Below are positions 11,068-33,100 of a stretch of DNA of 64,000 nucleotides, piece after piece. Both the position numbers and the translations under genes were made by a program. Location: the NCBI GenBank assembly GCA_964370905.1, contig CAYJKK010000003.1, forward strand, positions 43,118 through 107,117, read 5' to 3'. Below the pieces are notes generated by a model. That model searched no databases and was not told the origin of the DNA. It was given only the letters and a program-made list of their open reading frames with translations. Source of the stretch: an uncultured Clostridium sp. (GTDB lineage Bacteria > Bacillota > Clostridia > TANB77 > CAG-508). Position 1 is the first letter of the stretch. The number at the start of each line of letters is the position of its first letter.

Positions 11068-11080
11068 AATTTATAATTGA

Positions 11081-13462: not shown

Positions 13463-13489
13463 ACCTCTTTATAGAAAGGAGGTATTATT

Positions 13490-14927: not shown

Positions 14928-14944
14928 TTTCTTTCTCCTCCTCA

Positions 14945-15295
14945 TTATTCATAGATACATTCACTAATTGCTAGTTCTTCTGCTCTATTTTTTATATTAT
15001 TCATTCTTCTAACCCATTCCATTTGATCTTTTTGTTTTAATTCTTCTGTTAAATTCTCTTGTAACTTCAAGTGATTTATATAATAATTCATTCTTTCTAT
15101 GCACCTATTATTTAAATCATATAAATACGAATTAAGTGTTCCACTCATTAATAATTCTTGATACAAGATATTATCATTTTGTCTAATATAATTTAATCTC
15201 ACTAATCCATATTTTCCAATATTCTTTTGTTTTCTATCTTTTAACTTTAACAATGGTTTTAAATAATCTGATATTTTTTCATAATTTATTTTCAT
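14945..15295 (-). CDS. tnpV: TnpV-family transposon-encoded protein
   Basis: GKYGLVRLNYIRQN..LYQELLMSGTLNSYL...KDQMEWVRRMNNIKNRAEE, as in TnpV of Tn4451-type elements. The start may be 15313 (GTG) or 15295 (ATG after AAAGGAAAG). Confidence 0.75.
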   Translation of the reverse strand: MKINYEKISDYLKPLLKLKDRKQKNIGKYGLVRLNYIRQNDNILYQELLMSGTLNSYLYDLNNRCIERMNYYINHLKLQENLTEELKQKDQMEWVRRMNNIKNRAEELAISECIYE

Positions 15296-15446
15296 TTCAA
15301 TCTTTCCTTTCACATTAACGGGGATTGGGGTGTCCCCACATTAGAATTTGGTGGCAGGTGTACAAATTCAATGCTTGTTATTACAAATAATTTATTAATA
15401 TTCCCCTTATCTATGTTAGTAATTTCTTCATAATTTAAATCGTTTG

Positions 15447-16298
15447 CTAACATTCCACATTACAATATAACTTGTTTAAAACACTTTCATCATAACTTCT
15501 GCTATCAAAACTAGATTCTTTTTTATTTACTTTGTTATAGCTATTTCCTAAATTGTTATACAATGTGCTAACTAAATAACTATTAAGATTTTTAATATTA
15601 CTATTTGATTTAATTACATCAACTAGATGTATTAAATTATCCTTTGTTATTAATTTTAATTTATCTTTTATTTCAGTTTGTGAAACTGTTAATCCATTTA
15701 TTTTTAAAATAGCTGAATTATATAACTTGTTTATTACATCATTTAATATACATTTCTCTTTATTTTCAAAATCATTTAAATTACATTTTAACCTAACTTC
15801 TTCTATCGTGATATTTTCACGATGAGGATTTATATTATCAGTATTTATAATATTAGTATTATTTGTGTGTAAATTTGACATATCTAAAACTCCATCTTCT
15901 TCATATAAAGAACTAACATCTTTACATATTTGTTTAATACGTCTCATTTTACCTATATAAATCAAATTAGGTTTACCTTGACCTTGTTTCTTCTCCATAA
16001 TTAATTTTGCTTTAATTAGCTCTTTAAATGCTTTTATTATTGTCTTATATGATACCCTTAACATCTTTGCTGCTTTTTCTCTTGTGTATATTAAATATAT
16101 TCTGTTATTACTATCAGTCCAATTGTTTTTTAATGATAAATTAAATCTGTTTGTTAAAAATGCATATAACATTTTTGCTTCTAGTGATAATTCATCCATA
16201 TATAATGGATTTATAAATAACTCTTGTGGTACTGGATAATATGAATATGATATTACATCACTTATTTTATAAAATTCTATTTCTTCTATATCTTTCAT
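15447..16298 (-). CDS. replication initiator A (RepA_N) family protein
   Basis: N-terminal YYPVPQELFINPLY..LSLEAKMLYAFLTNRFNLS..NWTD..NRIYLIYTREKAAKML, typical of RepA_N in Firmicutes plasmids and ICEs. Confidence 0.8.
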   Translation of the reverse strand: MKDIEEIEFYKISDVISYSYYPVPQELFINPLYMDELSLEAKMLYAFLTNRFNLSLKNNWTDSNNRIYLIYTREKAAKMLRVSYKTIIKAFKELIKAKLIMEKKQGQGKPNLIYIGKMRRIKQICKDVSSLYEEDGVLDMSNLHTNNTNIINTDNINPHRENITIEEVRLKCNLNDFENKEKCILNDVINKLYNSAILKINGLTVSQTEIKDKLKLITKDNLIHLVDVIKSNSNIKNLNSYLVSTLYNNLGNSYNKVNKKESSFDSRSYDESVLNKLYCNVEC

Positions 16299-16520
16299 TT
16301 CTTACTCCCATCTAATTTTATGGAATAAAAATTCTATAAATTTTCTATACAATTTTTTAAGCTTGTATTTTTTTCTATACAAACAATTCTATACAAAAAC
16401 TGCTAATTTGAGTAAAACTTATTAAAACTGAAACCATAAAAAAGCACTAGCTAATTCCTTAGCTAATGCTCTTTTTACGTTTTCTCATTTTTCTACAATT
16501 CTGTAAGAATTGCTTCAAAG

Positions 16521-16533
16521 TGGTCGAGGAGAC
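16521..16533. repeat. putative att core, right copy (TGGTCGAGGAGAC), within the tRNA-Pro 3' end
   Basis: See 4768-4780. Confidence 0.5.
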
Positions 16534-16597
16534 AGGGATCGAACCTGCGACCTCATGGTCCCAAACCACGCGCGCTACCAACTGCGCTACTCCTCGA
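16521..16597 (-). tRNA. tRNA-Pro (anticodon UGG)
   Basis: Hand-folded cloverleaf of the reverse complement: TCGAGGA/TCCTCGA acceptor, anticodon stem CGTGG/CCATG, loop TTTGGGA, TTCGATC T-loop, encoded CCA. Confidence 0.9.
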
Positions 16598-16707
16598 TAT
16601 CTTCTATTTAAACGCTTATATATAATAACATAAAATTTATGATATTGCAATAAATTTTCTAAAAAAACTTGAATTTTTTTTATTTTCAAGTTATAATGTA
16701 TTAATCT

Positions 16708-16784
<77 letters not shown>

Positions 16785-16785
16785 A

Positions 16786-16815
16786 ACTCAACCATTTAGG
16801 TTGAGTTTTTGTTTT
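16786..16815 (+). terminator. rho-independent terminator after tRNA-Arg
   Basis: ACTCAACC-attta-GGTTGAGT followed by TTTTTGTTTT. Confidence 0.7.
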
Positions 16816-16915
16816 ATTTCTTTATTTCTTTATTTATTTTCTTTTTTGCTTTATTTTAGTTTTTTCTTATTTATTTTATTCTATTCTATCTTTCCAAAAA
16901 AATGACATATAAATC

Positions 16916-16944
16916 TTGAAATTTAATTTAACTTATGATATATT
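16916..16944 (+). promoter_or_regulatory. candidate sigma-A promoter for the nuclease gene
   Basis: TTGAAA, a 17-nt spacer, then TATATT. About 24 nt upstream of the SD-preceded ATG at 16968. Confidence 0.4.
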
Positions 16945-16967
16945 CATTTTATACTAAGGGGGAAATC

Positions 16968-17699
16968 ATGTCTAGAAAAAAACAAAAGAATACAAATATA
17001 AATAAAATCATATCAATTATAGTGTTAGTGCTTTCAGCATTTGCCACTTTATATATTAACAATATACAACCAAGTCAAATAGTAAATGCTTTATATACAC
17101 AACCAAATTCATATAGTTCACTTAAAGATATACCTGAATATTCTGGATCTCCATATGTAGTTTTAAATGGAAATATACCAGAATTTGAAGAAAAAAGTTA
17201 TCAAGTATTTGAATCATATAGTGATTTAGACTACTTAGGAAGATGTGGAGTTGCATTTGCTAATCTTGGAATAGAAACTATGCCTACAGAAGATAGAGAA
17301 TCAATTAGTCATATAAAACCTACTGGATGGCAATCAGTACAATATGATGTAGTGGATGGAAAATATCTATATAATAGATGTCATTTGATAGGTTTTCAAC
17401 TATCAAGTGAAAATGCAAATGATAAAAACTTAATTACAGGAACTAGATATTTTAATGTTGATGGAATGTTACCTTTTGAAAATCAGGTAGCAGAATATAT
17501 TGAAGAAACTAATAATCATGTTCTATATCGTGTAACACCTATATATGAAGGTAATGACTTAGTGGCTCAAGGTGTTCAAATAGAAGCTAAATCTCTAGAA
17601 GATAATGGTAGTGGAGTATTATTTAATGTATATGTATATAACATTCAACCAGATATTATTATAAATTATTCAGATGGTTCTTCATCTTTAAATATTTAA
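16968..17699 (+). CDS. secreted or membrane-anchored DNA/RNA non-specific endonuclease (EndA/DNA-entry-nuclease-like)
   Basis: N-terminal signal anchor, then LGRCGVAFANLG...YNRCHLIGFQLSSENANDKNLITGTRYFNV. Start chosen at the ATG after AAGGGGG (the ORF track begins at 16935). Confidence 0.8.
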   Translation: MSRKKQKNTNINKIISIIVLVLSAFATLYINNIQPSQIVNALYTQPNSYSSLKDIPEYSGSPYVVLNGNIPEFEEKSYQVFESYSDLDYLGRCGVAFANLGIETMPTEDRESISHIKPTGWQSVQYDVVDGKYLYNRCHLIGFQLSSENANDKNLITGTRYFNVDGMLPFENQVAEYIEETNNHVLYRVTPIYEGNDLVAQGVQIEAKSLEDNGSGVLFNVYVYNIQPDIIINYSDGSSSLNI

Positions 17700-17701
17700 A
17701 A

Positions 17702-17728
17702 AGCAGGAATTCCCTGCTTTTTTTATTT
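17702..17728 (+). terminator. rho-independent terminator after the nuclease gene
   Basis: AGCAGG-aattc-CCTGCT followed by a T-run. Confidence 0.6.
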
Positions 17729-18385
17729 TTGTTCTTCAATTAAACCTTTTTTCATTTTATATACTGTATCTGCATATTTAGAAACATTTTTAGAATGTGT
17801 AACTATTATAACTATTTTGCCGCTTTGCGCCATTTCTTTAAATAGATTCATAACCTTTTTTTCTGTATCTTCATCTAAATTTCCTGTTGGCTCATCTGCT
17901 ACAATTATAGGTACTTCACTTGCTAAACTTCTTGCTATAGCTGTTCTTTGTTGCTCTCCACCTGATAATTTCAATACTAGTCTATCTGCTTTTTCTTTAT
18001 CTATTCCAACTTTTTCTAATACTTTATATGTATAATCTTTTTCTTTTTTAACTTTTGAAAAGTCAACTGCAACATCTACATTTTCTTTTGCTGTCATATA
18101 TGTTATTAAATTATATGCTTGAAAAACAATATTAACATATTTTAGTCTAAATTCATTATACCCTATATTTTTAATACTTTTTCCATTATATATTATATCA
18201 CCCTCTTGTAATTTTTCTAATGCTGATAATATAGATATTAATGTAGTTTTTCCACTTCCTGACTCTCCAATAATAGAGTACATTTTTCCACTTTCAAATT
18301 CTATATTTATACCTTTTAAAACAGTATTTTTTTTGCTACCATCTTGATATACGTATTTTAAATCTTTTACTTCTAATTTATTCAT
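17723..18385 (-). CDS. ABC transporter ATP-binding protein (MacB/FtsE-like)
   Basis: Walker A GESGSGKTT, signature LSGGEQQR, Walker B IIVADEPT. Confidence 0.9.
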   Translation of the reverse strand: MNKLEVKDLKYVYQDGSKKNTVLKGINIEFESGKMYSIIGESGSGKTTLISILSALEKLQEGDIIYNGKSIKNIGYNEFRLKYVNIVFQAYNLITYMTAKENVDVAVDFSKVKKEKDYTYKVLEKVGIDKEKADRLVLKLSGGEQQRTAIARSLASEVPIIVADEPTGNLDEDTEKKVMNLFKEMAQSGKIVIIVTHSKNVSKYADTVYKMKKGLIEEQK

Positions 18386-18387
18386 AA

Positions 18388-19836
18388 TTATTCCCTCCCT
18401 GTTAATATTGTTTTAGGTTCATATTTCATAATATTAACAGTTGGAATTATCATAGCAATAAATGAAATTAAATAACCTATAACAAATAAAATTAGATACT
18501 CTTGAACACTTATGCTAACATCAATTTCATCTATAGCTTCTGTTTCTTCTGTTTCTTGAGATTGCATCCCAGGTCTCATATTTCCCGATTGCATTCCTGA
18601 TGTAGGTCTTCCAAAGTTTTCTTCTGATTGTTCCTCACTCATTTCTATTTGGTCATTTAATAATCCTTCTGATAAAGAATTAGCTAAAAATTGGCTAGTT
18701 CCTATTGATAATACAAAACCTATTGTTGCTACAATAATTAATTCTAAACAAATTTGTCCTATTATATTACTTTTTGGTGCTCCTAATGACATTAATACAC
18801 CCATTTCATATTTTCTACTTTTTATACTATTATTTATAATTAACGCTATAATTAGTACTGCTGCTATAATAACTGCCCACAATATAATTCCTGCAAAACT
18901 TCCAACTTGCTCTATTGGCCCTATCATCTGATCATATGCAGAAGAATCAATATCTAAAATTAATCCTAATTCTTCAAAATCATATTTTTTATTCACTTCT
19001 TCTATAAATATTTCACTATTTTCATGATTATTTAATGTAAATACTACATCACTTACACTATAATCCCCATCATTATATGTTTCTTCATCTAATAATATAG
19101 CTGCTGATTCTACATTCATATATATATTGTTTTCATATCCACTTGAGTTTGCTGTAAAAATACCTCTTACTGTATACTCTACAATATCTTCTGAATCACT
19201 TTTTTGTAACTGTATTGTATCTCCTACATTTATTCCATTTAACTCTGATAATTCATATGAAATTAAAATTTCATTATCGGTAGTTTCGTCAAAATATTCT
19301 CCATCTGATATTTCAAATGTATTACTTTCTACTTCTGGTATGAATGCATATGAGTTAATTCCCATTATATTAAGTCTATTAGTAGCGCCCATTCCTCCTG
19401 ACATCATTCCTCCTGTTGGCCTATTAGATGTCACTTCACTTTCATATAACTCAAATTCAATAGGCTCTGCGAAAGCTGTTAAACTATATGTAAAATCCTT
19501 TACATATTCAGAACTTCCTATATCCATAACCATATTCATTGTACTTTCTGGTCTTAACATTGACTCTATTTTGGAACTCATATCTTGCATATCCATAGAG
19601 CTATCTATTTGCTCCCTATTCATTGAACCTTTTACTTGTTCCATGTCTGTATTTAAAAATACTTCACTTCCCAAAGATTCTTTTGCATACTCCATACTCT
19701 CTTCAACTGAGTTTGAAATAGCAAGTGATGCTATTACTAAATTAGCCATAATAAACATTATAATTAGTAATACTATTGATTTACTTGGTTTTCTTATTAT
19801 ATTTAGCCAAGTTCTTTTGCACATATTTTTTAACAT
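18388..19836 (-). CDS. ABC transporter permease, FtsX-like (MacB-type, large extracytoplasmic domain)
   Basis: N-terminal TM, about 280-aa extracellular region and a C-terminal 3-TM FtsX block. 2-nt gap to the ATPase gene. Confidence 0.8.
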   Translation of the reverse strand: MLKNMCKRTWLNIIRKPSKSIVLLIIMFIMANLVIASLAISNSVEESMEYAKESLGSEVFLNTDMEQVKGSMNREQIDSSMDMQDMSSKIESMLRPESTMNMVMDIGSSEYVKDFTYSLTAFAEPIEFELYESEVTSNRPTGGMMSGGMGATNRLNIMGINSYAFIPEVESNTFEISDGEYFDETTDNEILISYELSELNGINVGDTIQLQKSDSEDIVEYTVRGIFTANSSGYENNIYMNVESAAILLDEETYNDGDYSVSDVVFTLNNHENSEIFIEEVNKKYDFEELGLILDIDSSAYDQMIGPIEQVGSFAGIILWAVIIAAVLIIALIINNSIKSRKYEMGVLMSLGAPKSNIIGQICLELIIVATIGFVLSIGTSQFLANSLSEGLLNDQIEMSEEQSEENFGRPTSGMQSGNMRPGMQSQETEETEAIDEIDVSISVQEYLILFVIGYLISFIAMIIPTVNIMKYEPKTILTGRE

Positions 19837-19951
19837 AATATGCCTCCTTTCAAAATGTATTTTAATTATACTTAATTTATCTTTAATGAATCTTAAATTA
19901 TTTTAGTATTTTTATAAAAAAGCAAGAGTCATTAAAACTCTTGCTTTCCTT

Positions 19952-21220
19952 CTATAATTTAATTATGAATTCTGTTATTTCTTTTGGAATGCTTATTGCC
20001 GTAATCTTACCTCCTAATTTTGTAACTATTGTTTTTGCTATAAATAATCCTAATCCATAACTATTATTTTCTGTTCTTGACTTATCACACTTATAAAATC
20101 TATCAAATATGTGTGGTAAATCTTCTTTTGATATACCTTCGCCTGTATTTGTTATACTTAATTCTATCTGTTTTTTGCTTTTTCTTAAACTAACATTTAT
20201 TTCTCCTGAATTATTTGTATATTTAATTGCATTATCTATTAAAATAATTATAACTTGTCTTAGTTTTTCTGGTTCTGTGTTTACAGTTATTTCTTCAGCT
20301 ATATCTACCTTTAATTTAATATCTTTTTCAAATACAATTGCTTCTACTGATGTAATTATTTCTTTGAGTGTTTGACCTAAATTTATATTTACTAATTTAT
20401 ATTTTTCTTCTTCATTTTTAGCACTCATTAAGAGCTCATTTATAAGTTTATTCATACCTTTAGTTTCTGCTTTAATATGTTTTAACCATTTTTCCTGTTC
20501 TTTTACTTTTGCATTTTTGTTTACCTCTATTGCATCAATATTAGCATTAATTATTGTAAGTGGTGTTTTTAGTTCATGAGTTGCATCTGCTACAAATTGT
20601 TTTTGCTTATTCCATACTTCTTCTAATGGCTTTATTGATCTATTTGCAAAATATATACTAATTATATATATTATTATAAGTACTGCAATACCTACACTTA
20701 CTAGTGCTATTAATAATGTTTGCATTGTTTCTTGAGTATTTGTAATATCCAAAAATGATATTTCATAATATGTTTTATTTTCAGTCTCAATCTCAAAATC
20801 TGACATAATATGGCCTATACTAGACTTTCTATATAACCATTCTCTATCATCTATAATAATTGTACCTAGCTCTTCACTACTATTAAAAACTTGCTCTGCT
20901 ATACTTATATATTCTTCTTCTACTAAATCGATATATGAAGAAACTCTTGTTACATTACCGTCTTTATCTAGAAATATATTAAAAGATGTATCTACTTCTG
21001 ATATTTGCTTTTTTATTTTTGGATTTTCAATATCTTCTAAATTCTTAATAAAATTTGTATTTGCAATAGGAATTCTATTTAACCTCTCCATGTTTTCACT
21101 TGTTAAATTTGCATTTATAATTATATAAATAGCAGTAAATGATGTCAGCATAATAATTGATATAACAACTAAGTTTATTAATAACAATCTATTCCTTAAA
21201 TTTTTAAACATCTTTTTCAC
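19952..21220 (-). CDS. sensor histidine kinase (2 TM, HisKA, HATPase_c)
   Basis: H-box ADATHELKTPLT, N box LIDNAIKYT, G box GLGLFIAK. Confidence 0.9.
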   Translation of the reverse strand: MKKMFKNLRNRLLLINLVVISIIMLTSFTAIYIIINANLTSENMERLNRIPIANTNFIKNLEDIENPKIKKQISEVDTSFNIFLDKDGNVTRVSSYIDLVEEEYISIAEQVFNSSEELGTIIIDDREWLYRKSSIGHIMSDFEIETENKTYYEISFLDITNTQETMQTLLIALVSVGIAVLIIIYIISIYFANRSIKPLEEVWNKQKQFVADATHELKTPLTIINANIDAIEVNKNAKVKEQEKWLKHIKAETKGMNKLINELLMSAKNEEEKYKLVNINLGQTLKEIITSVEAIVFEKDIKLKVDIAEEITVNTEPEKLRQVIIILIDNAIKYTNNSGEINVSLRKSKKQIELSITNTGEGISKEDLPHIFDRFYKCDKSRTENNSYGLGLFIAKTIVTKLGGKITAISIPKEITEFIIKL

Positions 21221-21887
21221 CTACTAACATATATCCAATTCCTCTTACTGTTTTTATTTTAACTTTAGTATTAAATGTCTCAAATTTTTTTCTTAAAAAT
21301 GATATATATACTTCCACATTATTATCTATTACTACTTTTTCAAATGTCCACAATTTACTAATAATAAATTCTTTTGTTACAATTTTTTCTGATTGCTCTA
21401 TTAATATTTCAACTAACTTTCCTTCTTTAGCAGTTAATTCATACTTTTTATTTCCACATTCAATTACTAAATTCTCTTTATTGTATTTTATATTTTCATA
21501 TATAACAATATCTTTTTTAATTATACCATCTTTTCTTCTACCTAATGCTCTTACTCTTGCTAATAGCTCTGCCATTTCAAATGGTTTTGATAAATAATCA
21601 TCTGCTCCTATATCTAATCCTAATACTTTGTCTTCAATCTCTCCTTTAGCTGTTAACATTATTATTGGTGTATTAATATTTTTAGCTCTTAAATTCTTAG
21701 CTATGTCTAAACCATTGATCTTTGGCAACATTATATCTAAGATTATAACATCATATGCTTCTGATAACGCATATTCTAATCCTGTTTCTCCATCATATGA
21801 TACATCAATAGTATATTTATTTTTTTTAAACACGTATTCAATTGCATCTGCCATATATTTTTGATCTTCTACTAATAATATTCTCAT
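21204..21887 (-). CDS. OmpR-family response regulator
   Basis: MRILLVEDQ..., DVIILDIMLP, C-terminal winged helix TVRGIGYML. Overlaps the kinase gene. Confidence 0.9.
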   Translation of the reverse strand: MRILLVEDQKYMADAIEYVFKKNKYTIDVSYDGETGLEYALSEAYDVIILDIMLPKINGLDIAKNLRAKNINTPIIMLTAKGEIEDKVLGLDIGADDYLSKPFEMAELLARVRALGRRKDGIIKKDIVIYENIKYNKENLVIECGNKKYELTAKEGKLVEILIEQSEKIVTKEFIISKLWTFEKVVIDNNVEVYISFLRKKFETFNTKVKIKTVRGIGYMLVGEKDV

Positions 21888-22053
21888 TAATTACACCTCT
21901 TTTAATATATTATTTATTTTTATTATATATATTATTTCTTAAACCAAGCTTAACTTAAATCTTTTACTTTTATTTATTCTAAATGTATTCTATCTATATT
22001 TAAAGGAAGTCTAGTAACTTACCAAACTTCCCTTATTATATTACTATTTACTT

Positions 22054-24582
22054 CTAAAATTCTATCTTTTTATATAAATTATTTTCTTTTTTATGTAATA
22101 ATTCTGGATTTTCTTCTATTATTTTATCAACAATGCTTTCACCTAATGTAAATGGTACTACGTACCCACCTAATGTATTTATTTTTTCTTTTAATACTGG
22201 TGATTCTTCATTTATATATATCTTTGAATCTCCTTTTCCATTTTTAGCTTCTTGCACTAAATTTGATACTGGTGAGTTTCCATCAAAAGCCATAACTAGT
22301 GAATCTCTTCTTTCAAAAATTTCATAATTAAAACTTTTATATATTCCCATTTCATCACTTTCTATTGAAACTCTTACTCCATCTATGTTATTTTCTTTTA
22401 ATTTATTACTTTCTGTTTCAGATATCATTTTGGGAATAATAGCATTAATTTCAAACTTTTTATTCATCTTTTTACTTATTTCTATTAATTCTTTTTCATA
22501 TCCTTCTACTTTATGACCAATTACAAAATATACTTTTTGTTCATCTAATTGTTCTATAAGTTTTTCTAACATAGCTTTTCCTTTTATTGTTATATCTGTT
22601 GTTCTCCCTTTTTTATTAAAACTTCCACCTGCTATAATTATCGGTTTTTTATTAATAGGAAATTGCTTAATCTTATCTTTAAATATGACTTCTGATTCTA
22701 ACTCATTTGTTATTCTCATTGGCTTATTATTAAGTTTTCCTATATTTACATTATGCTCTTCTAATTTTGTTAACACTTCTTTTATAGTTTTGTCACCTAT
22801 GTATTTATTGAATTTTTCAGATTTATTTTCAAAGTATTTATTTGAATGCTCTATTTTTTGCACTTCTATTTCTCTCATTTTTTCAAAATCTTTATCTGTT
22901 AAATTTAATAAATTTTTAAGTGCTAATTGTTCATCTATTGTGTCTACCCCATAAAATCCACATCCATCTGTTCCTTGTACACATTTTATTCCATACTCTA
23001 AATATCTTTTTAATGGGTGAACTTCTAAATCACTTAAATTATTTAATCTCACATTAGATGTAAGCTGAAATTCTAATATTGTATTTGTTTCTTTTAATTC
23101 CTTAATAAGGTCTTTTCCTTCTTTGCTCTCTAAATCTGCTGTATATAATCCATGACCTAACCTCACATTTGGAAATTTTTGATTTTTACTTAATGATTTT
23201 CTTACACATTCTATTGATTTTGCAACATTATCTTTTAAACTATCATTTTCGCCTGCATGAATTCTTATTGTAAATTCTTCATCTTCATCTCTTACAAATT
23301 CAACTAATTCTTTTATTGCTGGCAGTAAATCTGTTATATCATTTATTTCTTCACCTATAAAATCACTACCTACAACATAAGGGCTTTTAGCAACAGTTTT
23401 TAATGTATCTATATTTTCTCTTAAATAATTTCCTTCTGCTATTTGATCTTTTAATATAGTAAGTGGTATTCTTCTTAATCCTACTAAAAAACGAAGCTTA
23501 ACTCCTGTTTCTTTTTCTATGTATGGCATTATTTCATGAATGTCTGATATATAGTTTATAGCTGCTCCACCTGTTTTTGCTAATTCTGTATCAGTTATTT
23601 CTGCATATTCAATACCTTGTTTAGAATATTCTCTAGCTATCCATAATAGTTTATCTTTTCTTAAATCATTTTCTTTTATTTGAATATTTTTCATATCTTC
23701 TAACATTATTAACAGTTTTTCTTTTATCTCATTTTCTGGTATTAACTCTATACTACTTTTAGTTAATTCAACTTTATGTTCTGAAGTTTTCCCTTTACAA
23801 AAAACATATCTATATATATATACTTTTTCTAAATTTGTAAATACTGCTTGCCCATCTTTTAAAATAGCTAAACTTTTTCTTATTTTAGCTATATTATATT
23901 CTGCATCTTCAATATTTTCTAATATTAACTCAGTAAAATTTACATATGTATTATCATCTATCTTTCTAGTTGCTTCTTTCTCAGTATATCCTGATAACTC
24001 CATTGTTTCTTCAACTAATTTTCTCTTTTCCAATATTTCTATATTTTGATTCTCTGTTAATTTTAATTTTAGCTTTTTTATATAATATAACGGATATTTT
24101 ATTTGATGTTTTATTCCTAATGCAATTAATACATCTGGTGATAAATTTGCATTCATGTGTGTGTGTAAATCTGTTCTGAATTTAGATTTTTTTAATATAT
24201 ATGACTTAACTATAGTCTTTTCTATTGGTAAATTATATTGTTTAGTTTGTGACATTAAAGTTTTTGTTATTGCAGGTATCTTAGCTTTTATTGAAATTTC
24301 TCCATCTTCGTATATGTTAGCTATTTTAATTCCACCTAATCTTAATATATATACAACTCTATTAGCACCATCAATATTAGCTTCTAAAATACCTGATATT
24401 ATTTTCATATCTTTTTTATCTTTTACAGTTTCTAAATTAAATATTTTTGATAAATTTGTTATTAAGTTACCAGTGTTATGATTTGGAGTTTCAATAATAT
24501 ACTTAATTTCATCTTCCTTTTCTTTATATAAATTTACTATTATATCTTTTTCTTTATCTAAATAAAATTTACTAAACAACAT
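22054..24582 (-). CDS. 842-aa fusion: unknown N-domain, adenosine-deaminase-fold (amidohydrolase) domain and C-terminal LOG/SLOG-like Rossmann domain
   Basis: ADA-type metal and catalytic motifs in order: TDLHTHMNANL, IRIHAGEND, VRLGHGLY, QLTSNVRLN, QGTDGCG. C-terminal PIIIAGGS...VYFVIGH...LVMAFDGNSPVSNLVQEA resembles LOG/SLOG PGGxGTxxE-type folds. Stands alone with intergenic DNA on both sides. Confidence 0.6.
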   Translation of the reverse strand: MLFSKFYLDKEKDIIVNLYKEKEDEIKYIIETPNHNTGNLITNLSKIFNLETVKDKKDMKIISGILEANIDGANRVVYILRLGGIKIANIYEDGEISIKAKIPAITKTLMSQTKQYNLPIEKTIVKSYILKKSKFRTDLHTHMNANLSPDVLIALGIKHQIKYPLYYIKKLKLKLTENQNIEILEKRKLVEETMELSGYTEKEATRKIDDNTYVNFTELILENIEDAEYNIAKIRKSLAILKDGQAVFTNLEKVYIYRYVFCKGKTSEHKVELTKSSIELIPENEIKEKLLIMLEDMKNIQIKENDLRKDKLLWIAREYSKQGIEYAEITDTELAKTGGAAINYISDIHEIMPYIEKETGVKLRFLVGLRRIPLTILKDQIAEGNYLRENIDTLKTVAKSPYVVGSDFIGEEINDITDLLPAIKELVEFVRDEDEEFTIRIHAGENDSLKDNVAKSIECVRKSLSKNQKFPNVRLGHGLYTADLESKEGKDLIKELKETNTILEFQLTSNVRLNNLSDLEVHPLKRYLEYGIKCVQGTDGCGFYGVDTIDEQLALKNLLNLTDKDFEKMREIEVQKIEHSNKYFENKSEKFNKYIGDKTIKEVLTKLEEHNVNIGKLNNKPMRITNELESEVIFKDKIKQFPINKKPIIIAGGSFNKKGRTTDITIKGKAMLEKLIEQLDEQKVYFVIGHKVEGYEKELIEISKKMNKKFEINAIIPKMISETESNKLKENNIDGVRVSIESDEMGIYKSFNYEIFERRDSLVMAFDGNSPVSNLVQEAKNGKGDSKIYINEESPVLKEKINTLGGYVVPFTLGESIVDKIIEENPELLHKKENNLYKKIEF

Positions 24583-24774
24583 ATTACCTCCCTTTAAAAA
24601 TATTAAGTTATATTATATCATAATTTTAAGATTATGTAAATTATTTTCGATGTTTTGTCCTAGATTTTCCTTTATTATATAATCCTATTTTTTGATTTGA
24701 TTTTTATGACTTAAAATTTATTTACTTTTTTCATATATAATACTTTTTTTCATATAATATTATTAGGTGAAAAT

Positions 24775-25791
24775 ATGTTTATAAAAACTTTTAAATTTAA
24801 ACGAAAATTAATATTTATCATTTTTATTATACTTCTTATATTTTTTTTAACAACTCACTATATAACGTCAGCATATAATGACGATTATATTAAATGGGTT
24901 GATTTTAATGTTACTTCTGAAGTCCTTACTTTAACTTCTAAGCTAGATATTGAATCACACAACAATGACCATACTATCAAGTATAACTGGATAGAACTTA
25001 TATCATATCTAGGTGCTAAATATGGTGGTAATTTTGATAACTTTAGTTCAAAAGATTTAGATGATTTAATTTGTAGCCTTGACTCTGGATCTACTATTAC
25101 TGAGCTAACCTCTAATTTTAAAAACTACAACTACTATTATGAAGCATATTCTGCTGTTTTATCTGAATTTATTGGAACTTATTGGATACAAACTACTATT
25201 GATGGGGAAACTATCTTTAAAGAAAAATATGGCTTAAAAAACTTCTCACCAATTGCAAAAGGTTATTACTTTCATCACTATGATGATTTTGGTAACTCTA
25301 GATCTTATGGGTTTTCTAGGACACATTTAGGAAATGATTTAATGGGGAGCATTGGTACTCCAATAATTGCTACAGAATCTGGAATAGTTGAAAATATAGG
25401 TTGGAATCAATATGGTGGTTGGAGAATCGGAATTAAAAGTTTTGATGATAAAAGATATTACTATTATGCTCATCTTCAAAAAGATACTCCTTATTCTAAA
25501 GATTTGCAAAAAGGCTCAATTGTTAAAGCTGGTGATGTTATTGGATATTTAGGAATGACAGGTTATAGTATTAAAGAAAATGTAAATAATGTAAATATTC
25601 CTCATCTTCATTTTGGAATTCAACTAATTTTTGATGAATCTCAGATAGACTCTCCTAATGAAATTTGGATAGATGTATATGAAATTATTAAGTTTTTAAA
25701 CACAAATACATCAGAAGTGTATAAAAGCGATTCTTCTACAAATGAATTTATTAGAAAATATGATATATTCGAATTATTTACACAAGATTAA
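24775..25791 (+). CDS. M23-family peptidoglycan metalloendopeptidase
   Basis: N-terminal TM. HLGNDL ... PHLHFGIQ zinc-site motifs. Confidence 0.85.
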   Translation: MFIKTFKFKRKLIFIIFIILLIFFLTTHYITSAYNDDYIKWVDFNVTSEVLTLTSKLDIESHNNDHTIKYNWIELISYLGAKYGGNFDNFSSKDLDDLICSLDSGSTITELTSNFKNYNYYYEAYSAVLSEFIGTYWIQTTIDGETIFKEKYGLKNFSPIAKGYYFHHYDDFGNSRSYGFSRTHLGNDLMGSIGTPIIATESGIVENIGWNQYGGWRIGIKSFDDKRYYYYAHLQKDTPYSKDLQKGSIVKAGDVIGYLGMTGYSIKENVNNVNIPHLHFGIQLIFDESQIDSPNEIWIDVYEIIKFLNTNTSEVYKSDSSTNEFIRKYDIFELFTQD

Positions 25792-27177: not shown

Positions 27178-30100
27178 ATGAAAACACATGAATTATTAAA
27201 TTTATCAAATACACAAAAAAATATTTGGTTATCAGAATTAATGTACCCAAACACATCTTTAAATAGTATTTCAGGAACGCTTTTTTTTCAAGAACCCATA
27301 AATATTGAAATACTAGAAAAATCAATTAAAATGTTTGTACAACACAATTCTTTTTTATTAACTCAAATTAAATTAGAAAATGGATTGCCTTTTCAATTTA
27401 TAGATGAACATTTAAAAATACCAGTTAATGTCCATACATTAACTTCAATAAATGATTTAAAAACTTTGGAAAAAAATGTGGCTAAACATTCTTTTACTTT
27501 AATAGAATCACCACTTTTTACTTTTGATGCATTCACCCTTCCTGATGGGACTGGTGGACTTGTTTCTTGTCTACATCATATAGTATCTGATGCTTGGAGT
27601 TTTGGTTTAATGGCTGTAGGAATCAAGGATATTTATGTTTCTTTATCTCAAAATTCTGAACTTCCAGAAAAAAAGCCATCCTATATAGAATATCTAGATT
27701 TAGAGCATGAATATTTAAATAGTTCAAAATTTGAGAAATCAAAATTATTTTGGGAATCTACTTATGAAAACTTCCCAGATTTATCAACACTAAAGCTATA
27801 TACTGACAACTCTGTAGATGTAACTGCAGATAGGATGTCATTTACTTTAGATAATGATATTTCTAAAAAAATAGATATATATTCTAAAACTAATAATATT
27901 TCTAAATATAGTTTATTTATGGCTATATTTTCTATGTATTTATCTAGAGTTTCAAGAAACGATGACGTGATAATTGGTACACCTTTTTTAAATAGATCCA
28001 CTTTCAGAGAAAAAAATTCAATGGGTATTTTTATTAATACTATGCCAAATAGAATATCTGTTGATCATAACTTACCTTTTATTGAATTTGTAAAAAATGT
28101 AGGTAAAACTCAAATGTCAGTTATGAGACATCAAAAATATCCATATACTGAAATTTTAGAGTATACACATAAAAAGCATAATCTGTCTAGAAATATTTAC
28201 GATTTTATCATTTCTTATCAAAATGCAAGAGATGATTCTAAAGATTCTAGTATTCAATATACAACAAACTGGAATTTTCAATATGCCATATTAAATAGCT
28301 TACAAATTCATATGTTCGATATGGATGATACTGGTAATTTAACACTTTATTATGATTATCAATTAAATAAATATACTTCTGAGGAAATATCTGAAATTCA
28401 TTCTAGGATTTTATTTATTTTAGAACAAGTGACATCTAATAATATTAACTTAAATGAAATAGAAATTGTTACACCTAATGAAAAACAACTATTATTATTT
28501 GATTTAAATAAAACAGATGTACCTTATGATGAAACAGAAACTGTTCATCAATTATTTGAGGAACAAGTAAACAGAACACCTGATAAAGTAGCATTAGTTT
28601 TTAAAAATACTGAAATGACTTATGATGAAGTTAATAAAAAAGCTAATTCACTTGCTAACTACCTAAGAAAATCAAATGTTAAACCTAATGATATAATAGG
28701 TGTTTGCACACAAAGGTCTTTTGAAATGATTATAGGGATTCTAGGTATATTAAAAGCTGGCGCTGCTTATTTACCAATTGACCCGGAATATCCTATTGAT
28801 AGAATATCATACATGTTAGAAGATAGTAATTGCAAGCATGTTTTGACAACAAATAAAACAGATTTATTATTTACATCTAATACATCAAATATAATCAACC
28901 TCAATATAGAATTACATGATTCTAACAATATATTTTCAAGTTATAATACTGATAATCTAAATTCAGTATCTTCTCCTGAAGATTTAATATATTTAATATA
29001 TACTTCTGGTTCAACTGGAAAACCTAAGGGCGTAATGTTAACACATAAAAATCTTCGTAATTGTGTATTAGCCTTATACCGATTAGTAGATTTTAATGAA
29101 GATAAAACAATGATATCTTTAACAACAATATGTTTCGATATCTTTGTTGCAGAAATTTTTGGAAGTCTTCTTTCGGGGTTAAAACTAGTAATAGCTAGTG
29201 AGGAAGAACAAACAAATCCAAAATTACTTAATGATTTATGCTTAAAACATAATGTACATATTATACAAACTACACCATCTAGATATTCAATACTTTTTAC
29301 TAGTAATCAACTGGAATTATTTAAAAACACTACTGATGTACTTTTAGCAGGAGAACCTATTCCTCCTCATCTATTAAAAGGTATTCAAAAAAATTCAACT
29401 GCAAATATTTATAATATGTATGGACCAACTGAGACTACTGTTTGGGCTACAACTAAAGATGTTACTAGAAGTACTGAAATTTCTATTGGACCTCCAATTA
29501 CTAATACTAAAACATATATATTAGATAAATTTGGACATCTCTTGCCACCTAATATTCCAGGAGAATTATATATTGGTGGAGATGGTGTTTCAAATGGCTA
29601 TTTAAATAGACCAGATTTAACTAAAGAAAAATTCATTAAAAGTTTATATTTTGATAATATGACTATTTATAACTCTGGTGATTTAGCATACATAAAAAAA
29701 GACGGAGATATTATGCACCTTGGAAGAACAGATTTCCAAGTTAAAATAAATGGATATAGAGTAGAAATTGGTGAAATTGAATCAAAAATATTATCATATG
29801 ATAATATTTCAAATGTTATAGTTTTATATAAAAATAATGGTTTAGTTTGTTATTACACTGCTACTAATAAATTAGATAATCATGAATTAATTACATATTT
29901 ATTAGAATATTTACCACACTACATGATACCATCACATTTCGAATATTTAGAGACTATGCCTCTTACTCCTAATGGAAAAATTGATCGTTCTAAATTACCG
30001 GAAATAACAAAAACTGAAATAGATGATAATTTCTTAGAGGCTTCATCTGAGACAGATAAAAAATTAGAAACTATTATTAAAGAAGTTTTAAAAATTGATA

Positions 30101-33100
30101 TTGTTAATTTCAATTCTTCTTTCTTAGCCTTAGGAGGAGACTCTTTAAATGCAATTAATTTAAATATTAAAATTGATAATATATTTAATGTATCACTAAG
30201 TGTTAAAGATATTTTAGCTTGTCAATATATCAAGGATATTTCTACTAAAATTAATGCTTTGTCATCTTCTAGTATTAATACTATAAAACTTTCTAAAGTT
30301 TCTGAAAAAGAATATTACAATGTTTCTTCTTCACAAAAATCTATTTATTATGCTAGTAAAATTGATTCTTCTAATATTGCATATAATACACCTGGAAAAT
30401 TAATGCTTGAAGGTGAACTTGATGTTGAAAAATTAGAAAATGCAATCAATTCTTTAATTGAATTACAAGAATCTTTTAGAACATATTTTATTACTTTAGA
30501 AAATGGAGATATAGTACAAAAAATATTACCTACAGCAGAAATTTCAATTGATATAATAGAATGTGATGATTTGACTCTTGATAAATTAATATTAGATTCA
30601 ATTAAACCGTTTAATTTAGAAATAGCTCCAATACTTAGAGTTAAACTTTTCAAAATTTGTTCAACTAAACATATTTTAGTATTTGACACTCATCACATTA
30701 TTATTGATGGCATGTCTTTACAAATTTTCTTAAAGCAAATTGAATTGTTTTACAATGATACTGCTGATTTAAACTTAAGTATTACATATAAAGATTATTC
30801 TGAATGGGAAAATAAAATATTAAAGAATAATATTCTAGAAAATGAAGAAAACTACTGGGTATCAAAATTTGGTAACTATGATATACCCATTTTAAACTTA
30901 CCAACAGATTATAATAGAAAATTAATTTCTACTTTTAGAGGTGACAAAATTATGTCTATTATTGCAGATTCTCTTCATGATAAAATAAACGTTATTTGCA
31001 GAACTTATAATATTACACCAAATGCATTTTTATTTACTGCATACTATATTCTTTTATCGAAATACTCAAGTCAAAATGATATTGTTATTGGTACGCCAAC
31101 AATAAATCGTTCTAAACCTGAATTATTTGATATTATAGGTGTATTTATTAATACATTGCCTATACGAATACAACACAATGATAACACTTCATGCAAAGAT
31201 TTAATTTTAAATATACAAGAATTACTACTTGATGGTATTTCAAATGGTAATTTCCCTTTAAATAAAATTTTGGATACTTTAAAAATCAAAAGAGATGCAA
31301 GTAGAAATCCTTTATTTGATACAATGTTTACATTTCAAAGTAATGGTGATTTAAACCTTAATTTAAATAATCTATCAACTAACATAGAATATATAAATAC
31401 TAATATTTCTAAATTAGATTTATCTTTAGAAATTATTCCTACAACTGATTCATATGAAATTACATTAGAATACTCTATTGATTTATTTGAAAAGGCGACA
31501 ATAACACGAATGTTAAATAACTATCTATATATTGTTGATAATTTATGTACAACATTGTCATCTAATCAAGATATATCATTGTCTAGTTTTGAAATAATAT
31601 CTAACAATGAAAAAAATACTTTACTATACGATTTCAATAATACGCAAAATACTTTTAACGAATCATTAACAATACATCAACTTTTTGAAGAACAAGTAAA
31701 ATATAATCCAGATAAAATTGCTGTTGTTTCTAATAATCAAAGTTTGACATATAGAGAATTAAATGAAAAAGCTAATCAAATAGCATCATATATCAAGAAT
31801 AATTATAGTGTATCAACTAATGATATAATAGGTCTATTAACAACTAGAACTCGTGAACTAACTCTTGGACAAATTGCAATATTAAAAACTGGTTGTGCCT
31901 ATCTTCCTATTGATCCAACTTACCCAGAAGATAGAGTAAATTACATGCTAGAAAATAGCAAAACAAAATTAGTTCTAACTAACTTGTCTGAAAATTCATA
32001 TAATAATAAGTTATGTGACTTTATAAATATCAAAATTGAAACTGATAATATAATTTATTCATCTAATAATATCCAAAATTTAAATTATGGTGATAGCAAA
32101 AGTTTATGCTATGTGATATATACTTCTGGTTCAACTGGAAAGCCTAAGGGTGTTGCATTAACTCATATTAATGTACATAATTTTATTAATGGAGCCACAC
32201 AAGAAATAGATTTTTTTAATAAAAATATGTTATCTGTTACAACTATGTCTTTTGATATATTCTTAGTTGAAAGTTTATTACCATTAACAAAAGGTTTAAA
32301 AATAATATTAGCAAATGAAGATGAGCAAAACATTCCAAAATTACTTAGTGATCTTGTATATGATCATGATGCTCATATAATTCAAACAACGCCTTCAAGA
32401 TATAATTTATTACTAAATGATACAGATAACATATCATTTTTTAGTAATTTTGCGGATATTATAACTGGTGGTGAACCAATAACAAAAAAATTATTGACAA
32501 ATTTACAAAATATATCTAGTGCAAATATTTATAATATTTATGGTCCTACAGAAACAACAGTATGGTCTACAATGGCTGATTTAACTGGTGAAAAAGATAT
32601 TACTATAGGTAAACCTATTCATAATACTAATATATATATATTAGATAGAAATAAACAATTATTGCCTATTGGCGCAATTGGTGAAATACATATAGGAGGA
32701 AAAGGAGTTGGAAAAGGTTATTTATTTAATAATGATTTAACATCCAAAAGTTTTATACATAATCCTTACAATTCCAATGAAATTATTTATAATACTGGAG
32801 ATATCGGAAAATGGCTTCCTGATGGAAATATTCTATGTTTAGGAAGATCTGATAATCAAATTAAAATTTCTGGAAATAGAGTGGAGTTATCTGAAATTGA
32901 AAAAGTAATTTTACAAAAAAATAATATTACTAATGCTATTGTACTATTAAAAACTGATTCATCAAATAGACAATTTTTATGTGCATATGTTGTATCAAAA
33001 GATCGAATTAGTCAATCTGATTTGAGAAAACATATTTCTAAATTTTTACCACCATATATGATTCCTTCAGCTATGGTTCAAATGGATAAAATACCGTATA

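What the first reader, a model, noticed from the sequence alone, without database searches (positions are those of the whole stretch)
22054..24582. Stand-alone 842-aa adenosine-deaminase-fold protein fused to a LOG/SLOG-like nucleotide-binding domain and an unknown N-domain
The central ~430 aa carry the ordered ADA/amidohydrolase motifs: HxH (DLHTHM), HAGE, GHG, TSN and TDG. The last ~200 aa look like a Rossmann LOG/SLOG-type module (IIIAGGS, VIGH, AFDGNSPVSNLVQEA). Comparative-genomic work has proposed such domains as nucleotide-signal sensors in conflict systems. The first ~130 aa are unassigned.

Large ADA-fold enzymes are effectors in known defence systems, for example RdrB of RADAR and the CARF-fused Cad1 ATP deaminase. 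Here there is no RdrA-like ATPase, CARF domain or CRISPR context. The gene is monocistronic, with 166 bp of intergenic DNA on one side and 192 bp on the other.

It could be a single-gene, ligand-gated (d)ATP/adenosine deaminase, with a role in defence or signalling. It could also be an unusual purine-salvage enzyme.
Basis: partly seen in the sequence, partly recalled or inferred. Interest (0 to 1): 0.7.

Follow-up and report, generated by a model that had tools for sequence, protein, structure and literature searches.

The report
Core-genome adenosine-deaminase-fold enzyme with SLOG sensor domain
This is a real 842-residue protein that joins an adenosine-deaminase-type enzyme to a nucleotide-sensing SLOG domain; it is a conserved chromosomal gene of hundreds of gut Clostridia species, so it is more likely a regulated purine-nucleotide enzyme than a phage-defence gene, but no member has ever been studied.

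Summary
Window 22054-24582 (-) is an intact 842-aa ORF. It appears to have its own promoter, ribosome-binding site and terminator hairpin.

- **Central part:** an adenosine-deaminase (ADA) fold with every metal ligand and both catalytic residues invariant. The two Asp residues that hold N7 and the ribose 5'-OH in classical adenosine deaminase are replaced.
- **C-terminal ~200 aa:** no sequence-profile match, but the predicted structure matches SLOG-superfamily proteins. The LOG catalytic motif is not kept.
- **N-terminal ~130 aa:** still unassigned.

The defence reading is not supported for this gene. It is a full-length, 60-73 % identical gene in at least 546 species-level genomes of low-GC gut Clostridia MAGs. 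It sits in a conserved NRPS-HtrA-M23 chromosomal block. Its commonest immediate neighbour is a guanine deaminase. Nothing matches PADLOC, phages, plasmids or viral contigs.

A second clade (about 25-38 % identical) has the same architecture. It occurs in other gut MAGs, sometimes next to mobile or defence-type genes and a PGDYG protein.

Best reading (about 0.5): a housekeeping adenine-nucleotide deaminase whose activity is gated allosterically by the SLOG domain. It works like the sensor-plus-ADA logic of Cad1, but it is not a member of Cad1 or RADAR. The family is uncharacterised: a new variant of a known kind.

The parts
22054..24582 (-). Complete 842-aa ORF (N-domain + ADA fold + SLOG domain)
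   Evidence: ORF list and translation. Full-length homologues at 60-73 % identity.
24193..24582 (-). N-terminal domain, aa 1-130: beta-rich, ending in the conserved helix IPAITKTLMSQTK. Fold unassigned.
   Evidence: AF2 secondary structure. No Pfam or PDB match. Conserved in both clades.
22798..24183 (-). ADA-fold (beta/alpha)8 metal-dependent deaminase domain, aa ~134-595, with a helical insertion (aa ~145-300) after strand 1
   Evidence: Pfam PF00962, 70.4 bits. PDB sequence hits to Plasmodium and bacterial ADA. Foldseek hits to ADA, ADAL, AMPD and Cad1. The insertion is partly specific to this clade.
24157..24165 (-). HxH metal ligands H140 and H142. N144 follows where classical ADA has the ribose-binding Asp.
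   Evidence: Aligned to ELHCHLD of Plasmodium ADA. Invariant in 30 homologues.
23248..23259 (-). HAGE: metal ligand H442 and catalytic E445
   Evidence: Aligned to HAGE of Plasmodium ADA. Invariant in both clades.
23149..23157 (-). GHG: catalytic H477
   Evidence: Aligned to GHG of Plasmodium ADA. Invariant.
22963..22971 (-). TDG: metal ligand D539, followed by G540 in place of the second Asp of classical ADA
   Evidence: Aligned to SDD of Plasmodium ADA. DG is invariant in both clades.
22093..22665 (-). C-terminal SLOG-superfamily Rossmannoid domain, aa ~640-830
   Evidence: AF2 model of aa 612-842. Foldseek hits to TRPM SLOG domains, MCP, ShosA, DprA, LOG and YgdH. Sub-threshold LSDAT_prok/LSDAT_euk Pfam hits in distant relatives.
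22621..22632 (-). First glycine-rich loop of the SLOG domain (AGGS, aa 651-654), after strand 1
   Evidence: Invariant in 30 homologues. The second Gly (G652) and S654 are invariant across both clades.
22231..22290 (-). Second SLOG loop and helix, AFDGNSPVSNLVQEAKNGKG (aa 765-784). It is the counterpart of the LOG PGGxGTxxE motif but does not keep it.
   Evidence: Nearly invariant in this clade. It aligns to GGGGVVxDMIQ in the second clade.
24612..24640 (-). Promoter-like site TTTACA-17-TATAAT with TG extension, about 30 bp upstream of the ATG
   Evidence: 11 of 12 positions match. The total number of such sites in the region is no more than in shuffles, so this is only suggestive.
24587..24595 (-). 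Ribosome-binding site AAAGGGAGG
   Evidence: Read directly from the sequence.
22001..22035 (-). Terminator-like 16-bp hairpin followed by UUUAAAUAUA
   Evidence: MFE -18.7 kcal/mol, z -5.4, 0 of 200 shuffles fold as well.

Best explanation
The gene encodes a chromosomal, vertically inherited, three-domain enzyme of a lineage of low-GC gut Clostridia.

**Proposed mechanism.**
- The central ADA-fold domain is a catalytically competent metal-dependent aminohydrolase. It deaminates the adenine moiety of a purine compound, most likely a nucleotide (AMP, ATP or dATP type) rather than free adenosine, to the inosine form.
- The C-terminal SLOG domain is not a second enzyme. It is a nucleotide or nucleotide-derivative binding module that switches the deaminase allosterically. 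Candidate ligand classes are guanine nucleotides or alarmones, or ADP-ribose-type compounds.
- The N-terminal domain probably serves assembly or a further regulatory contact.
- The physiological role is control of the adenine/guanine nucleotide balance and purine salvage in organisms with small genomes: a bacterial counterpart, in logic, of allosterically regulated AMP deaminase. It is not a mobile anti-phage system.

**Shown:** the ORF, the domain folds, the intact catalytic residues, the conservation, and the chromosomal context.

**Inferred:** the substrate class, the non-catalytic sensor role of the SLOG domain, the ligand, and the physiological role.
For: **The enzyme looks competent.**
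- H140, H142, H442, D539, E445 and H477 align to the metal ligands and catalytic residues of solved ADAs.
- They are invariant in 30 close homologues and in the second clade.
- The fold matches ADA, ADAL and AMP deaminase better than Cad1: TM-score per target 0.6-0.7 against 0.32-0.51.

**It is not a plain adenosine deaminase.**
- Scores are 21-55 bits against NCBIfam Add equivalog cut-offs of 216-549.
- The classical D296 and D19 positions are G540 and N144. From memory, Asn at the D19 position is shared with the nucleotide-specific ADAL/MAPDA enzymes.

**The SLOG domain looks like a binder.**
- Its fold matches the TRPM SLOG domains, a cofactor carrier (MCP) and DprA. I know these as ligand-binding rather than catalytic members: TRPM2's N-terminal SLOG domain binds ADP-ribose. 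No tool here tested that.
- The LOG PGGxGTxxE motif is degenerate here (DGNSPVSN), and the Glu-equivalent varies between clades (N, D, E).

**The gene behaves like a core gene.**
- At least 546 of 600 sampled species-level genome hits carry it, all gut Clostridia MAGs, at 60-73 % identity over the full length.
- Its divergence is similar to that of the neighbouring HtrA and M23 genes.
- Its GC content equals that of the surrounding DNA.
- The synteny NRPS-HtrA-M23-(GuaD)-ADA is kept in relatives and in strains that differ in adjacent mobile elements.

**Purine-related neighbours.**
- A guanine deaminase is the commonest upstream neighbour: 10 of 68, same strand, 80 bp away in a prevalent human-gut species.
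- A YjbM/RelQ-type alarmone synthetase lies upstream in 6 loci.
- Adenylosuccinate synthase lies upstream in the closest genome-collection relative.

**No defence signal.**
Against: - No biochemical data exist for any member. Substrate and ligand are inferred.
- The neighbour associations are weak: 15 % or less of species for any one neighbour. They may reflect shared ancestry of sub-clades rather than independent events. The tree test was lost with the script machine.
- I could not inspect whole genomes, so it is not shown that these organisms lack a canonical add, ade or amn gene, or de novo purine synthesis.
- Near-universality in the lineage is inferred from the number of species hit, without a denominator.
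- The second clade sometimes lies beside recombinases, GmrSD, Fic, methyltransferases and NUDIX genes. This would fit a conflict-system origin.
- The models are of moderate confidence (pLDDT 71-73).
Confidence: 0.5

Rival explanations
1. A single-gene immune or stress effector with Cad1-like logic. The SLOG domain senses an infection-derived nucleotide signal, for example an ADP-ribose or cADPR-type molecule. It then switches on ATP/dATP to ITP/dITP conversion, which arrests growth. The gene has become fixed in the chromosome of this lineage.
For: - The sensor-plus-ADA architecture parallels CARF-ADA Cad1, which converts ATP to ITP on cA4/cA6 binding (PMC11645235). Cad1 structures are among the fold matches.
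- The SLOG fold matches include ShosA of a defence system.
- The second clade lies in places near recombinases, GmrSD_N, Fic, DNA methyltransferases and a Nudt16-like NUDIX.
- An integrase/AIPR/RepA_N island lies 6-17 kb from the gene in the window.
Against: - There is no PADLOC hit for the protein, and no recurring defence partner among 138 immediate neighbours.
- Conservation is uniform (60-73 %, full length) in 546 or more species, without the diversification or patchiness usual for defence genes.
- The gene stays in place while the adjacent mobile elements differ between strains.
- In the window, tRNA genes, an ABC transporter and a two-component system separate it from the island.
- No signal-producing enzyme (TIR, cyclase, CRISPR) is nearby.
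- There are no phage, plasmid or viral relatives.
Confidence: 0.2
2. A bifunctional purine-catabolic enzyme. The SLOG domain is itself catalytic: a LOG/PpnN-like nucleotide N-glycosidase or a deoxyribosyltransferase-like activity. It hands its product, or takes its substrate, from the deaminase domain. One example would be AMP to adenine plus ribose-5-phosphate, then adenine to hypoxanthine.
For: - LOG and YgdH/PpnN structures are among the fold matches.
- One distant relative carries an extra nucleoside-2-deoxyribosyltransferase-like domain. A stand-alone one lies near another relative.
- Sequence conservation in the SLOG domain is very high.
- The purine-related neighbours fit this reading too.
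Against: - The LOG signature PGGxGTxxE is not kept, and the Glu-equivalent varies (N, D, E) between clades.
- No Pfam LOG hit at E up to 10.
- The better fold matches are the TRPM SLOG domains and MCP, which I take, from memory, to be non-catalytic.
Confidence: 0.12
3. A signal quencher. The ADA domain deaminates an adenine-containing signalling nucleotide (cAMP, c-di-AMP or (p)ppApp type) and so ends a signal. The SLOG domain helps to recognise that nucleotide.
For: - The ADA family includes enzymes with non-adenosine substrates. A cAMP deaminase of this family has been described (from memory; not checked here).
- The N7- and 5'-OH-binding Asp residues are replaced.
- A small alarmone synthetase is adjacent in 6-9 loci of this clade and lies 3 kb away in one locus of the second clade.
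Against: The association with the alarmone synthetase is seen in a minority of species and may be inherited synteny. No direct evidence for any such substrate.
Confidence: 0.1

Closest known systems
Cad1 (CARF-fused adenosine deaminase of type III CRISPR systems)
   Same: One polypeptide joins a Rossmann-type nucleotide-sensor domain to an ADA-fold deaminase. Cad1 is switched on by ligand binding and converts ATP to ITP (PMC11645235). Its ADA domain is a significant fold match (E 5e-6 to 2e-4).
   Different: - The sensor here is SLOG, not CARF, and it is C-terminal rather than N-terminal.
- There is an extra N-terminal domain.
- There is no CRISPR context.
- The gene is core-genome, and classical ADA and ADAL structures match better than Cad1.
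RdrB of RADAR
   Same: A large ADA-fold protein that acts on adenine nucleotides in defence (PMC9994260, listed).
   Different: - No RdrA ATPase partner.
- No PADLOC RdrB match.
- RdrB is not among the top 50 fold matches.
- The domain architecture is different.
Classical adenosine deaminase (Add/ADA1, COG1816) and ADAL/MAPDA and AMP deaminases
   Same: (beta/alpha)8 fold; the HxH, HAGE, GHG and D metal and catalytic residues; best sequence and fold matches. Like eukaryotic AMP deaminase, it is a large protein with extra, presumably regulatory, parts.
   Different: - 842 aa against about 330-370.
- Far below the Add equivalog cut-offs.
- D296 is replaced by Gly and D19 by Asn.
- A large insertion follows strand 1.
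- It has added N-terminal and SLOG domains.
SLOG superfamily (TRPM N-terminal LSDAT domain, MCP, DprA, ShosA, LOG, PpnN/YgdH)
   Same: The predicted C-terminal fold matches these proteins. It has a glycine-rich loop after strand 1. Distant relatives give sub-threshold LSDAT_prok and LSDAT_euk Pfam hits.
   Different: No Pfam SLOG-family model is reached by the window protein. The LOG catalytic motif is absent. I found no paper describing fusion of a SLOG domain to an ADA domain in four searches, three of which bore on it.

Membership tests
Adenosine/AMP deaminase family (Pfam PF00962, COG1816) | Profile score above the curated threshold | tested here: met
   70.4 bits against a cut-off of 27, aa 299-580.
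Adenosine/AMP deaminase family (Pfam PF00962, COG1816) | Four metal ligands (HxH, His of HAGE, Asp) and the catalytic Glu and His | tested here: met
   H140, H142, H442, D539, E445 and H477 align to Plasmodium ADA. They are invariant.
Adenosine/AMP deaminase family (Pfam PF00962, COG1816) | (beta/alpha)8 amidohydrolase fold | tested here: met
   Foldseek E 2e-9 to 1e-4 to ADA, ADAL, AMPD and Cad1. Model pLDDT 72.7.
Canonical bacterial adenosine deaminase Add (NCBIfam equivalogs) | Score above the equivalog cut-off | tested here: not met
   Best score is 55.4 bits against 216.55. The other eight models give 21-55 bits against cut-offs of 412-549.
Canonical bacterial adenosine deaminase Add (NCBIfam equivalogs) | Substrate-contact Asp residues (mouse D19 for the ribose 5'-OH, D296 for purine N7) | tested here: not met
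   N144 and G540 occupy these positions. Gly is invariant in both clades. The residue roles are from memory of mouse ADA structures.
SLOG superfamily | Rossmannoid fold similar to known SLOG members | tested here: met
   Top PDB matches are TRPM8/2/3 SLOG domains, MCP, ShosA, DprA, LOG and YgdH. Probability 0.97-1.00, E 1e-4 to 3e-2. Model pLDDT 70.9.
SLOG superfamily | Match to a curated SLOG family profile (LSDAT, LOG, DprA and others) | tested here: inconclusive
   None for the window protein at E up to 10. Sub-threshold LSDAT_prok and LSDAT_euk hits (15.6-17.8 bits against cut-offs of about 25) appear in two distant relatives.
LOG / PpnN nucleotide phosphoribohydrolases | Catalytic motif PGGxGTxxE | tested here: not met
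   The counterpart is FDGNSPVSN here and GGGGVVxD in the second clade. The motif itself is from memory.
Cad1 | CARF sensor domain and a type III CRISPR neighbourhood | tested here: not met
   No CARF hit. No CRISPR genes within 10 kb. Among 138 immediate neighbours, the only Cas-model hits are weak ones (Cas3 and Cas10a at E 3e-8 to 4e-6, which I read as HD-domain cross-matches) and one Cas1-type hit in a single locus.
RADAR (RdrA/RdrB) | RdrB profile match and an adjacent RdrA AAA+ ATPase | tested here: not met
   No PADLOC family at E up to 1. The neighbours are a response regulator and an M23 peptidase.
Defence-island genes in general | Recurrent location next to known defence genes or on mobile elements | tested here: not met
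   For this clade the neighbours are housekeeping or purine genes, and the chromosomal block is stable. There are no phage, plasmid or viral relatives. For the second clade the picture is mixed. No formal enrichment statistic was computed.
Any deaminase family | Measured deaminase activity and substrate | not testable with these tools
   Needs purified protein.

The most novel reading that the evidence does not exclude
The family is a previously unrecognised class of bacterial SLOG-gated adenine-nucleotide deaminases. It is a chromosomally fixed switch that converts AMP or ATP to IMP or ITP when the SLOG domain binds an alarmone- or ADP-ribose-type ligand. It would act either as the missing bacterial counterpart of allosteric AMP deaminase or as a built-in growth-arrest and immunity effector related in logic to Cad1. 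The second clade, with its PGDYG partner, would represent the mobile conflict-system form.
Probability: 0.25. Interest if true: 0.7.

Novelty: new variant of a known kind. Interest (0 to 1): 0.5.

Why it matters
**Why it would matter.**
- Sensor-fused ADA enzymes (Cad1, RdrB) have so far been studied as mobile anti-phage effectors.
- This family has the same logic, with a SLOG sensor in place of CARF. Yet it is a strongly conserved chromosomal gene in hundreds of uncultured, small-genome gut Clostridia, some of them very prevalent in humans. One variant is indexed in 636 blocks of the contig collection.
- If it is a ligand-gated nucleotide deaminase, it would show that this effector type also serves housekeeping control of purine pools, or that an immune effector has become core.
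- It would also give a prokaryotic SLOG domain of the TRPM type an assayable output for finding its ligand.

**If it turns out ordinary.** If it is merely an adenosine deaminase with extra domains, the result is only a better annotation for a large family now labelled 'adenosine deaminase' or 'hypothetical protein'.

Tried and rejected
- **Sequence-only identification of the C-domain and N-domain failed.** Pfam at E up to 10 gave nothing useful. PDB profile searches also gave nothing. Only the structure model resolved the C-domain.
- **Defence databases and mobile collections gave nothing.** This covers PADLOC, INPHARED phages and PLSDB plasmids searched with a second-clade member, IMG/VR with both clades, and BFVD fold search.
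- **A conserved operon partner in this clade: rejected.** The most frequent neighbour at any position occurs in only 14 of 81 loci.
- **A paralogue in the window: rejected.** The 839-aa ORF at 53090-55609 is gyrA.
- **Membership of the integrase/AIPR island at 4.8-16.3 kb: rejected.** tRNA genes and a conserved two-component/ABC block lie between it and the gene. The same ADA-side arrangement is kept in a relative.
- **A LOG-like catalytic reading of the SLOG domain: downgraded** because the motif is not kept.
- **Literature.** Four searches for an ADA-SLOG fusion or a similar defence system, and one for PGDYG, found nothing relevant. The 2015 SLOG paper could not be opened under the PMC id I recalled.
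- **An unfinished analysis.** I planned a tree of the 81 proteins against neighbour types, to test whether the guanine-deaminase and alarmone-synthetase adjacencies arose independently. The script machine was lost, so this was not done.
- **Unused search.** The third large protein search was not used. Thousands of family members would have filled its list of 120 hits.
Full report
**1. The observation**

- Window 22054-24582 (-) is an uninterrupted 842-codon ORF with an ATG start. The DNA is 25 % G+C throughout.
The first gap runs to the response regulator at 21204-21887, on the same strand. The second runs to the divergent M23 peptidase at 24775-25791.
- Upstream of the ATG there is a promoter-like site, TTTACA-17-TATAAT with a TG extension (24612-24640, 11 of 12 positions). 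The number of such sites in the region is no higher than in shuffles, so this is only suggestive.
- A strong ribosome-binding site, AAAGGGAGG, lies just before the ATG.
- Fifteen bases after the stop codon, a 16-bp hairpin is followed by UUUAAAUAUA (-18.7 kcal/mol, z -5.4).
- The gene therefore looks monocistronic.

**2. The domains**

*ADA fold.*
- Pfam finds only A_deaminase (aa 299-580, 70.4 bits against 27).
- Alignment to solved Plasmodium ADA places H140/H142 on the HxH motif, H442/E445 on HAGE, H477 on GHG and D539 on the metal-binding Asp. All are invariant in 30 close homologues and in a second, distant clade.
- The full-length AlphaFold model (pLDDT 72.7) matches ADA, ADAL, snail AMP deaminase, adenine deaminase and, less well, Cad1.

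*It is not a canonical Add.*
- NCBIfam equivalog scores are 21-55 bits against cut-offs of 216-549.
- The residue after the metal-binding Asp is Gly in the whole family (TDG, not TDD).
- The residue two after the HxH is Asn, or Ala/Thr in the second clade, not Asp.
- In mouse ADA these two Asp residues bind purine N7 and the ribose 5'-OH (from memory). Their loss, and the Asn shared with the nucleotide-specific ADAL/MAPDA enzymes (from memory), suggest a substrate other than plain adenosine.
- A helical insertion follows strand 1 (aa ~145-300). Part of it is specific to this clade.

*SLOG domain.*
- The last ~230 aa have no Pfam hit at E up to 10 and no PDB profile hit.
- A separate model (pLDDT 70.9, seven beta-alpha units) matches the N-terminal SLOG domains of TRPM8, TRPM2 and TRPM3, the molybdenum-cofactor carrier protein, ShosA, DprA, LOG types I and II, and YgdH/PpnN (probability 0.97-1.00).
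- Two distant full-length relatives give sub-threshold Pfam hits to LSDAT_prok and LSDAT_euk in the same region.
- The counterpart of the LOG catalytic motif PGGxGTxxE is AFDGNSPVSN here and GGGGVVxD in the second clade. The Glu-equivalent is N, D or E. This argues for a binding role rather than a LOG-type catalytic role.

*N-terminal domain.* The first ~130 aa are beta-rich with a conserved helix. They are shared by both clades but have no detectable relatives.

**3. Distribution**

- The large protein search returned 5658 significant hits. The best 120 are all 825-862 aa and 65-73 % identical over 98-100 % of the query. The few that carry a name are called 'adenosine deaminase' from Clostridia MAGs.
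- In a collection with one genome per species, 546 of 600 sampled pattern matches encode a relative. The best 80 are all gut MAGs labelled Clostridia, Clostridium sp. or Candidatus Scatovivens, at 60-71 % identity.
- An exhaustive search of 1.84 billion cluster representatives found only 800 proteins at E 0.001 or better. They include three full-length clusters at 54-64 % identity and a set of 700-1100-aa proteins at 27-38 % identity with the same ADA + SLOG layout.
- The second clade has over 1000 members. It occurs in MAGs labelled Clostridia, Candidatus Saccharibacteria, 'Azospirillum sp.' and Ignavibacteriales.
- No relative was found in phage genomes, plasmids or IMG/VR viral contigs. No BFVD viral-protein model matched the fold at E 0.001 or better.

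**4. Context**

*In the window.*
- The gene lies between an M23 peptidase, HtrA and a 2488-aa NRPS on one side. On the other side are a response regulator, a histidine kinase, two ABC-transporter genes, an Endonuclease_NS_2 gene and tRNA-Pro/Arg.
- Beyond the tRNAs lies a mobile island: RepA_N, an AIPR protein and an integrase.
- gyrA and gyrB are also in the window, so this is chromosome.

*In close relatives.*
- The nearest relative keeps NRPS-HtrA-ADA-RR-HK-ABC-EndoNS, followed by a RepA_N/relaxase element.
- A prevalent human-gut species keeps NRPS-HtrA-M23-guanine deaminase-ADA. Different mobile elements follow in different strains.
- The gene therefore sits on the stable side of an integration hot spot.

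*Across 81 loci.*
- No neighbour is conserved.
- The commonest immediate upstream gene is a guanine deaminase: 10 of 68, and its best PDB match is B. subtilis GuaD at E 1e-36.
- Next come M23 (7) and a YjbM/RelQ-type alarmone synthetase (6).
- The commonest downstream gene is an unknown 185-aa protein (14 of 74).
- Adenylosuccinate synthase is upstream in the closest genome-collection relative.
- PADLOC hits among the 138 neighbours are scattered, and I read them as domain-level cross-matches. The protein itself has none.

*Second clade.*
- The context is more mixed.
- A PGDYG-domain protein (PF14083) is adjacent in four loci from two phyla.
- An unknown 152-aa protein follows the gene in the Clostridia members.
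- Recombinases, GmrSD_N, Fic, methyltransferases and NUDIX genes, one of them Nudt16-like, occur nearby.

**5. Interpretation**

- The enzyme part is almost certainly active.
- The SLOG part most likely binds a nucleotide-type ligand and controls the enzyme. This is the same sensor-plus-effector logic as Cad1, which turns ATP into ITP on cyclic-oligoadenylate binding (PMC11645235).
- Five observations point to a housekeeping, vertically inherited function: wide and uniform conservation, native composition, stable chromosomal position, purine-related neighbours, and the absence of any defence or mobile signal.
- The most likely role is regulated conversion of adenine nucleotides to inosine nucleotides for purine balance and salvage (confidence about 0.5).
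- Rivals are a chromosomally fixed immune or stress effector (0.2), a bifunctional enzyme with a catalytic SLOG domain (0.12) and a quencher of an adenine-containing signal (0.1).
- It works like Cad1 in architecture but is not a member of Cad1 or RADAR. It is a member of the ADA family and, at fold level, of the SLOG superfamily.

**6. Novelty and verdict**

- No paper describing an ADA-SLOG fusion or this family was found.
- I rate it a new variant of a known kind, of moderate interest (0.5).
Its defence hypothesis is not supported for this gene. Its purine-metabolism alternative is favoured.
- Limits: no biochemistry, moderate model confidence, no whole-genome or pangenome analysis, and the loss of the script machine.

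Noticed in passing
window 27178-34644 (+): A 2488-aa two-module NRPS ending in a reductase domain: two Condensation, two AMP-binding and two PP-binding matches, then NAD_binding_4. It is syntenic with HtrA, M23 and the ADA gene in related species. From memory, this resembles the gut-Clostridia NRPS clusters reported to make dipeptide aldehydes or pyrazinones.
   Followed up: partly
window 4871-16784: A probable integrated mobile element with defence cargo. It has a tyrosine integrase (4871-6175), an AIPR abortive-infection-type protein (7772-9499), a weak N6_N4 methyltransferase-like match (~11654-11842) and RepA_N (15447-16298). It ends at tRNA-Pro/tRNA-Arg (16521-16784).
   Followed up: partly
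L091 versus L092/L093, about 11000-18000 in locus coordinates: In strains of one prevalent gut species, the DNA just downstream of the identical ADA-SLOG gene carries different mobile elements. One has conjugation-type genes; the other has RepA_N + Mob_Pre. The position is an integration hot spot.
   Followed up: partly
L083 7414-7929, L084 7414-7929, L089 6418-6930, L085 7082-7750: A ~170-220-aa PGDYG-domain protein (PF14083, function unknown; 43-69 % identical to each other where compared) lies next to the second-clade ADA-SLOG gene. The MAGs are labelled Azospirillum sp. and Ignavibacteriales, plus an unnamed metagenome contig. It may be a conserved partner. No paper mentions PGDYG.
   Followed up: partly
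L085 11213-11737; L088 11230-11688: NUDIX hydrolase genes lie close to second-clade members. The one in L085 is Nudt16-like, a family that (from memory) includes (deoxy)inosine diphosphatases. This would fit clean-up of deaminated nucleotides.
   Followed up: no
L087 9501-9959, L088 9465-9926, L086 10900-11367: An unknown ~152-aa protein (34-60 % identical to each other) lies directly after, or shortly after, the gene in Clostridia members of the second clade. Paralogues lie 5-10 genes away in some loci of the window's clade.
   Followed up: partly
L032 2827-3384 and 13 other loci: An unknown 185-aa protein with no Pfam or NCBIfam match is the commonest gene immediately downstream of the ADA-SLOG gene (14 of 74 loci). 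It is absent from the window.
   Followed up: no
window 17723-21887 (-): A response regulator, a histidine kinase, an FtsX-type permease and an ABC ATPase lie directly downstream of the gene. The layout is Bce-type (from memory). The block is conserved in the nearest relative (L090).
   Followed up: no
window 34655-37708 (+): A 7TM-PAS histidine kinase (34655-36472) is followed by a small ORF and an HD_5 domain protein (37028-37708). This looks like a signalling module next to the NRPS, and it is also next to the NRPS in L090.
   Followed up: no
window 53090-55609 and 61018-62946 (-): gyrA and gyrB lie here. GC skew is negative over most of the window on the + strand. The window is ordinary chromosome.
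   Followed up: no
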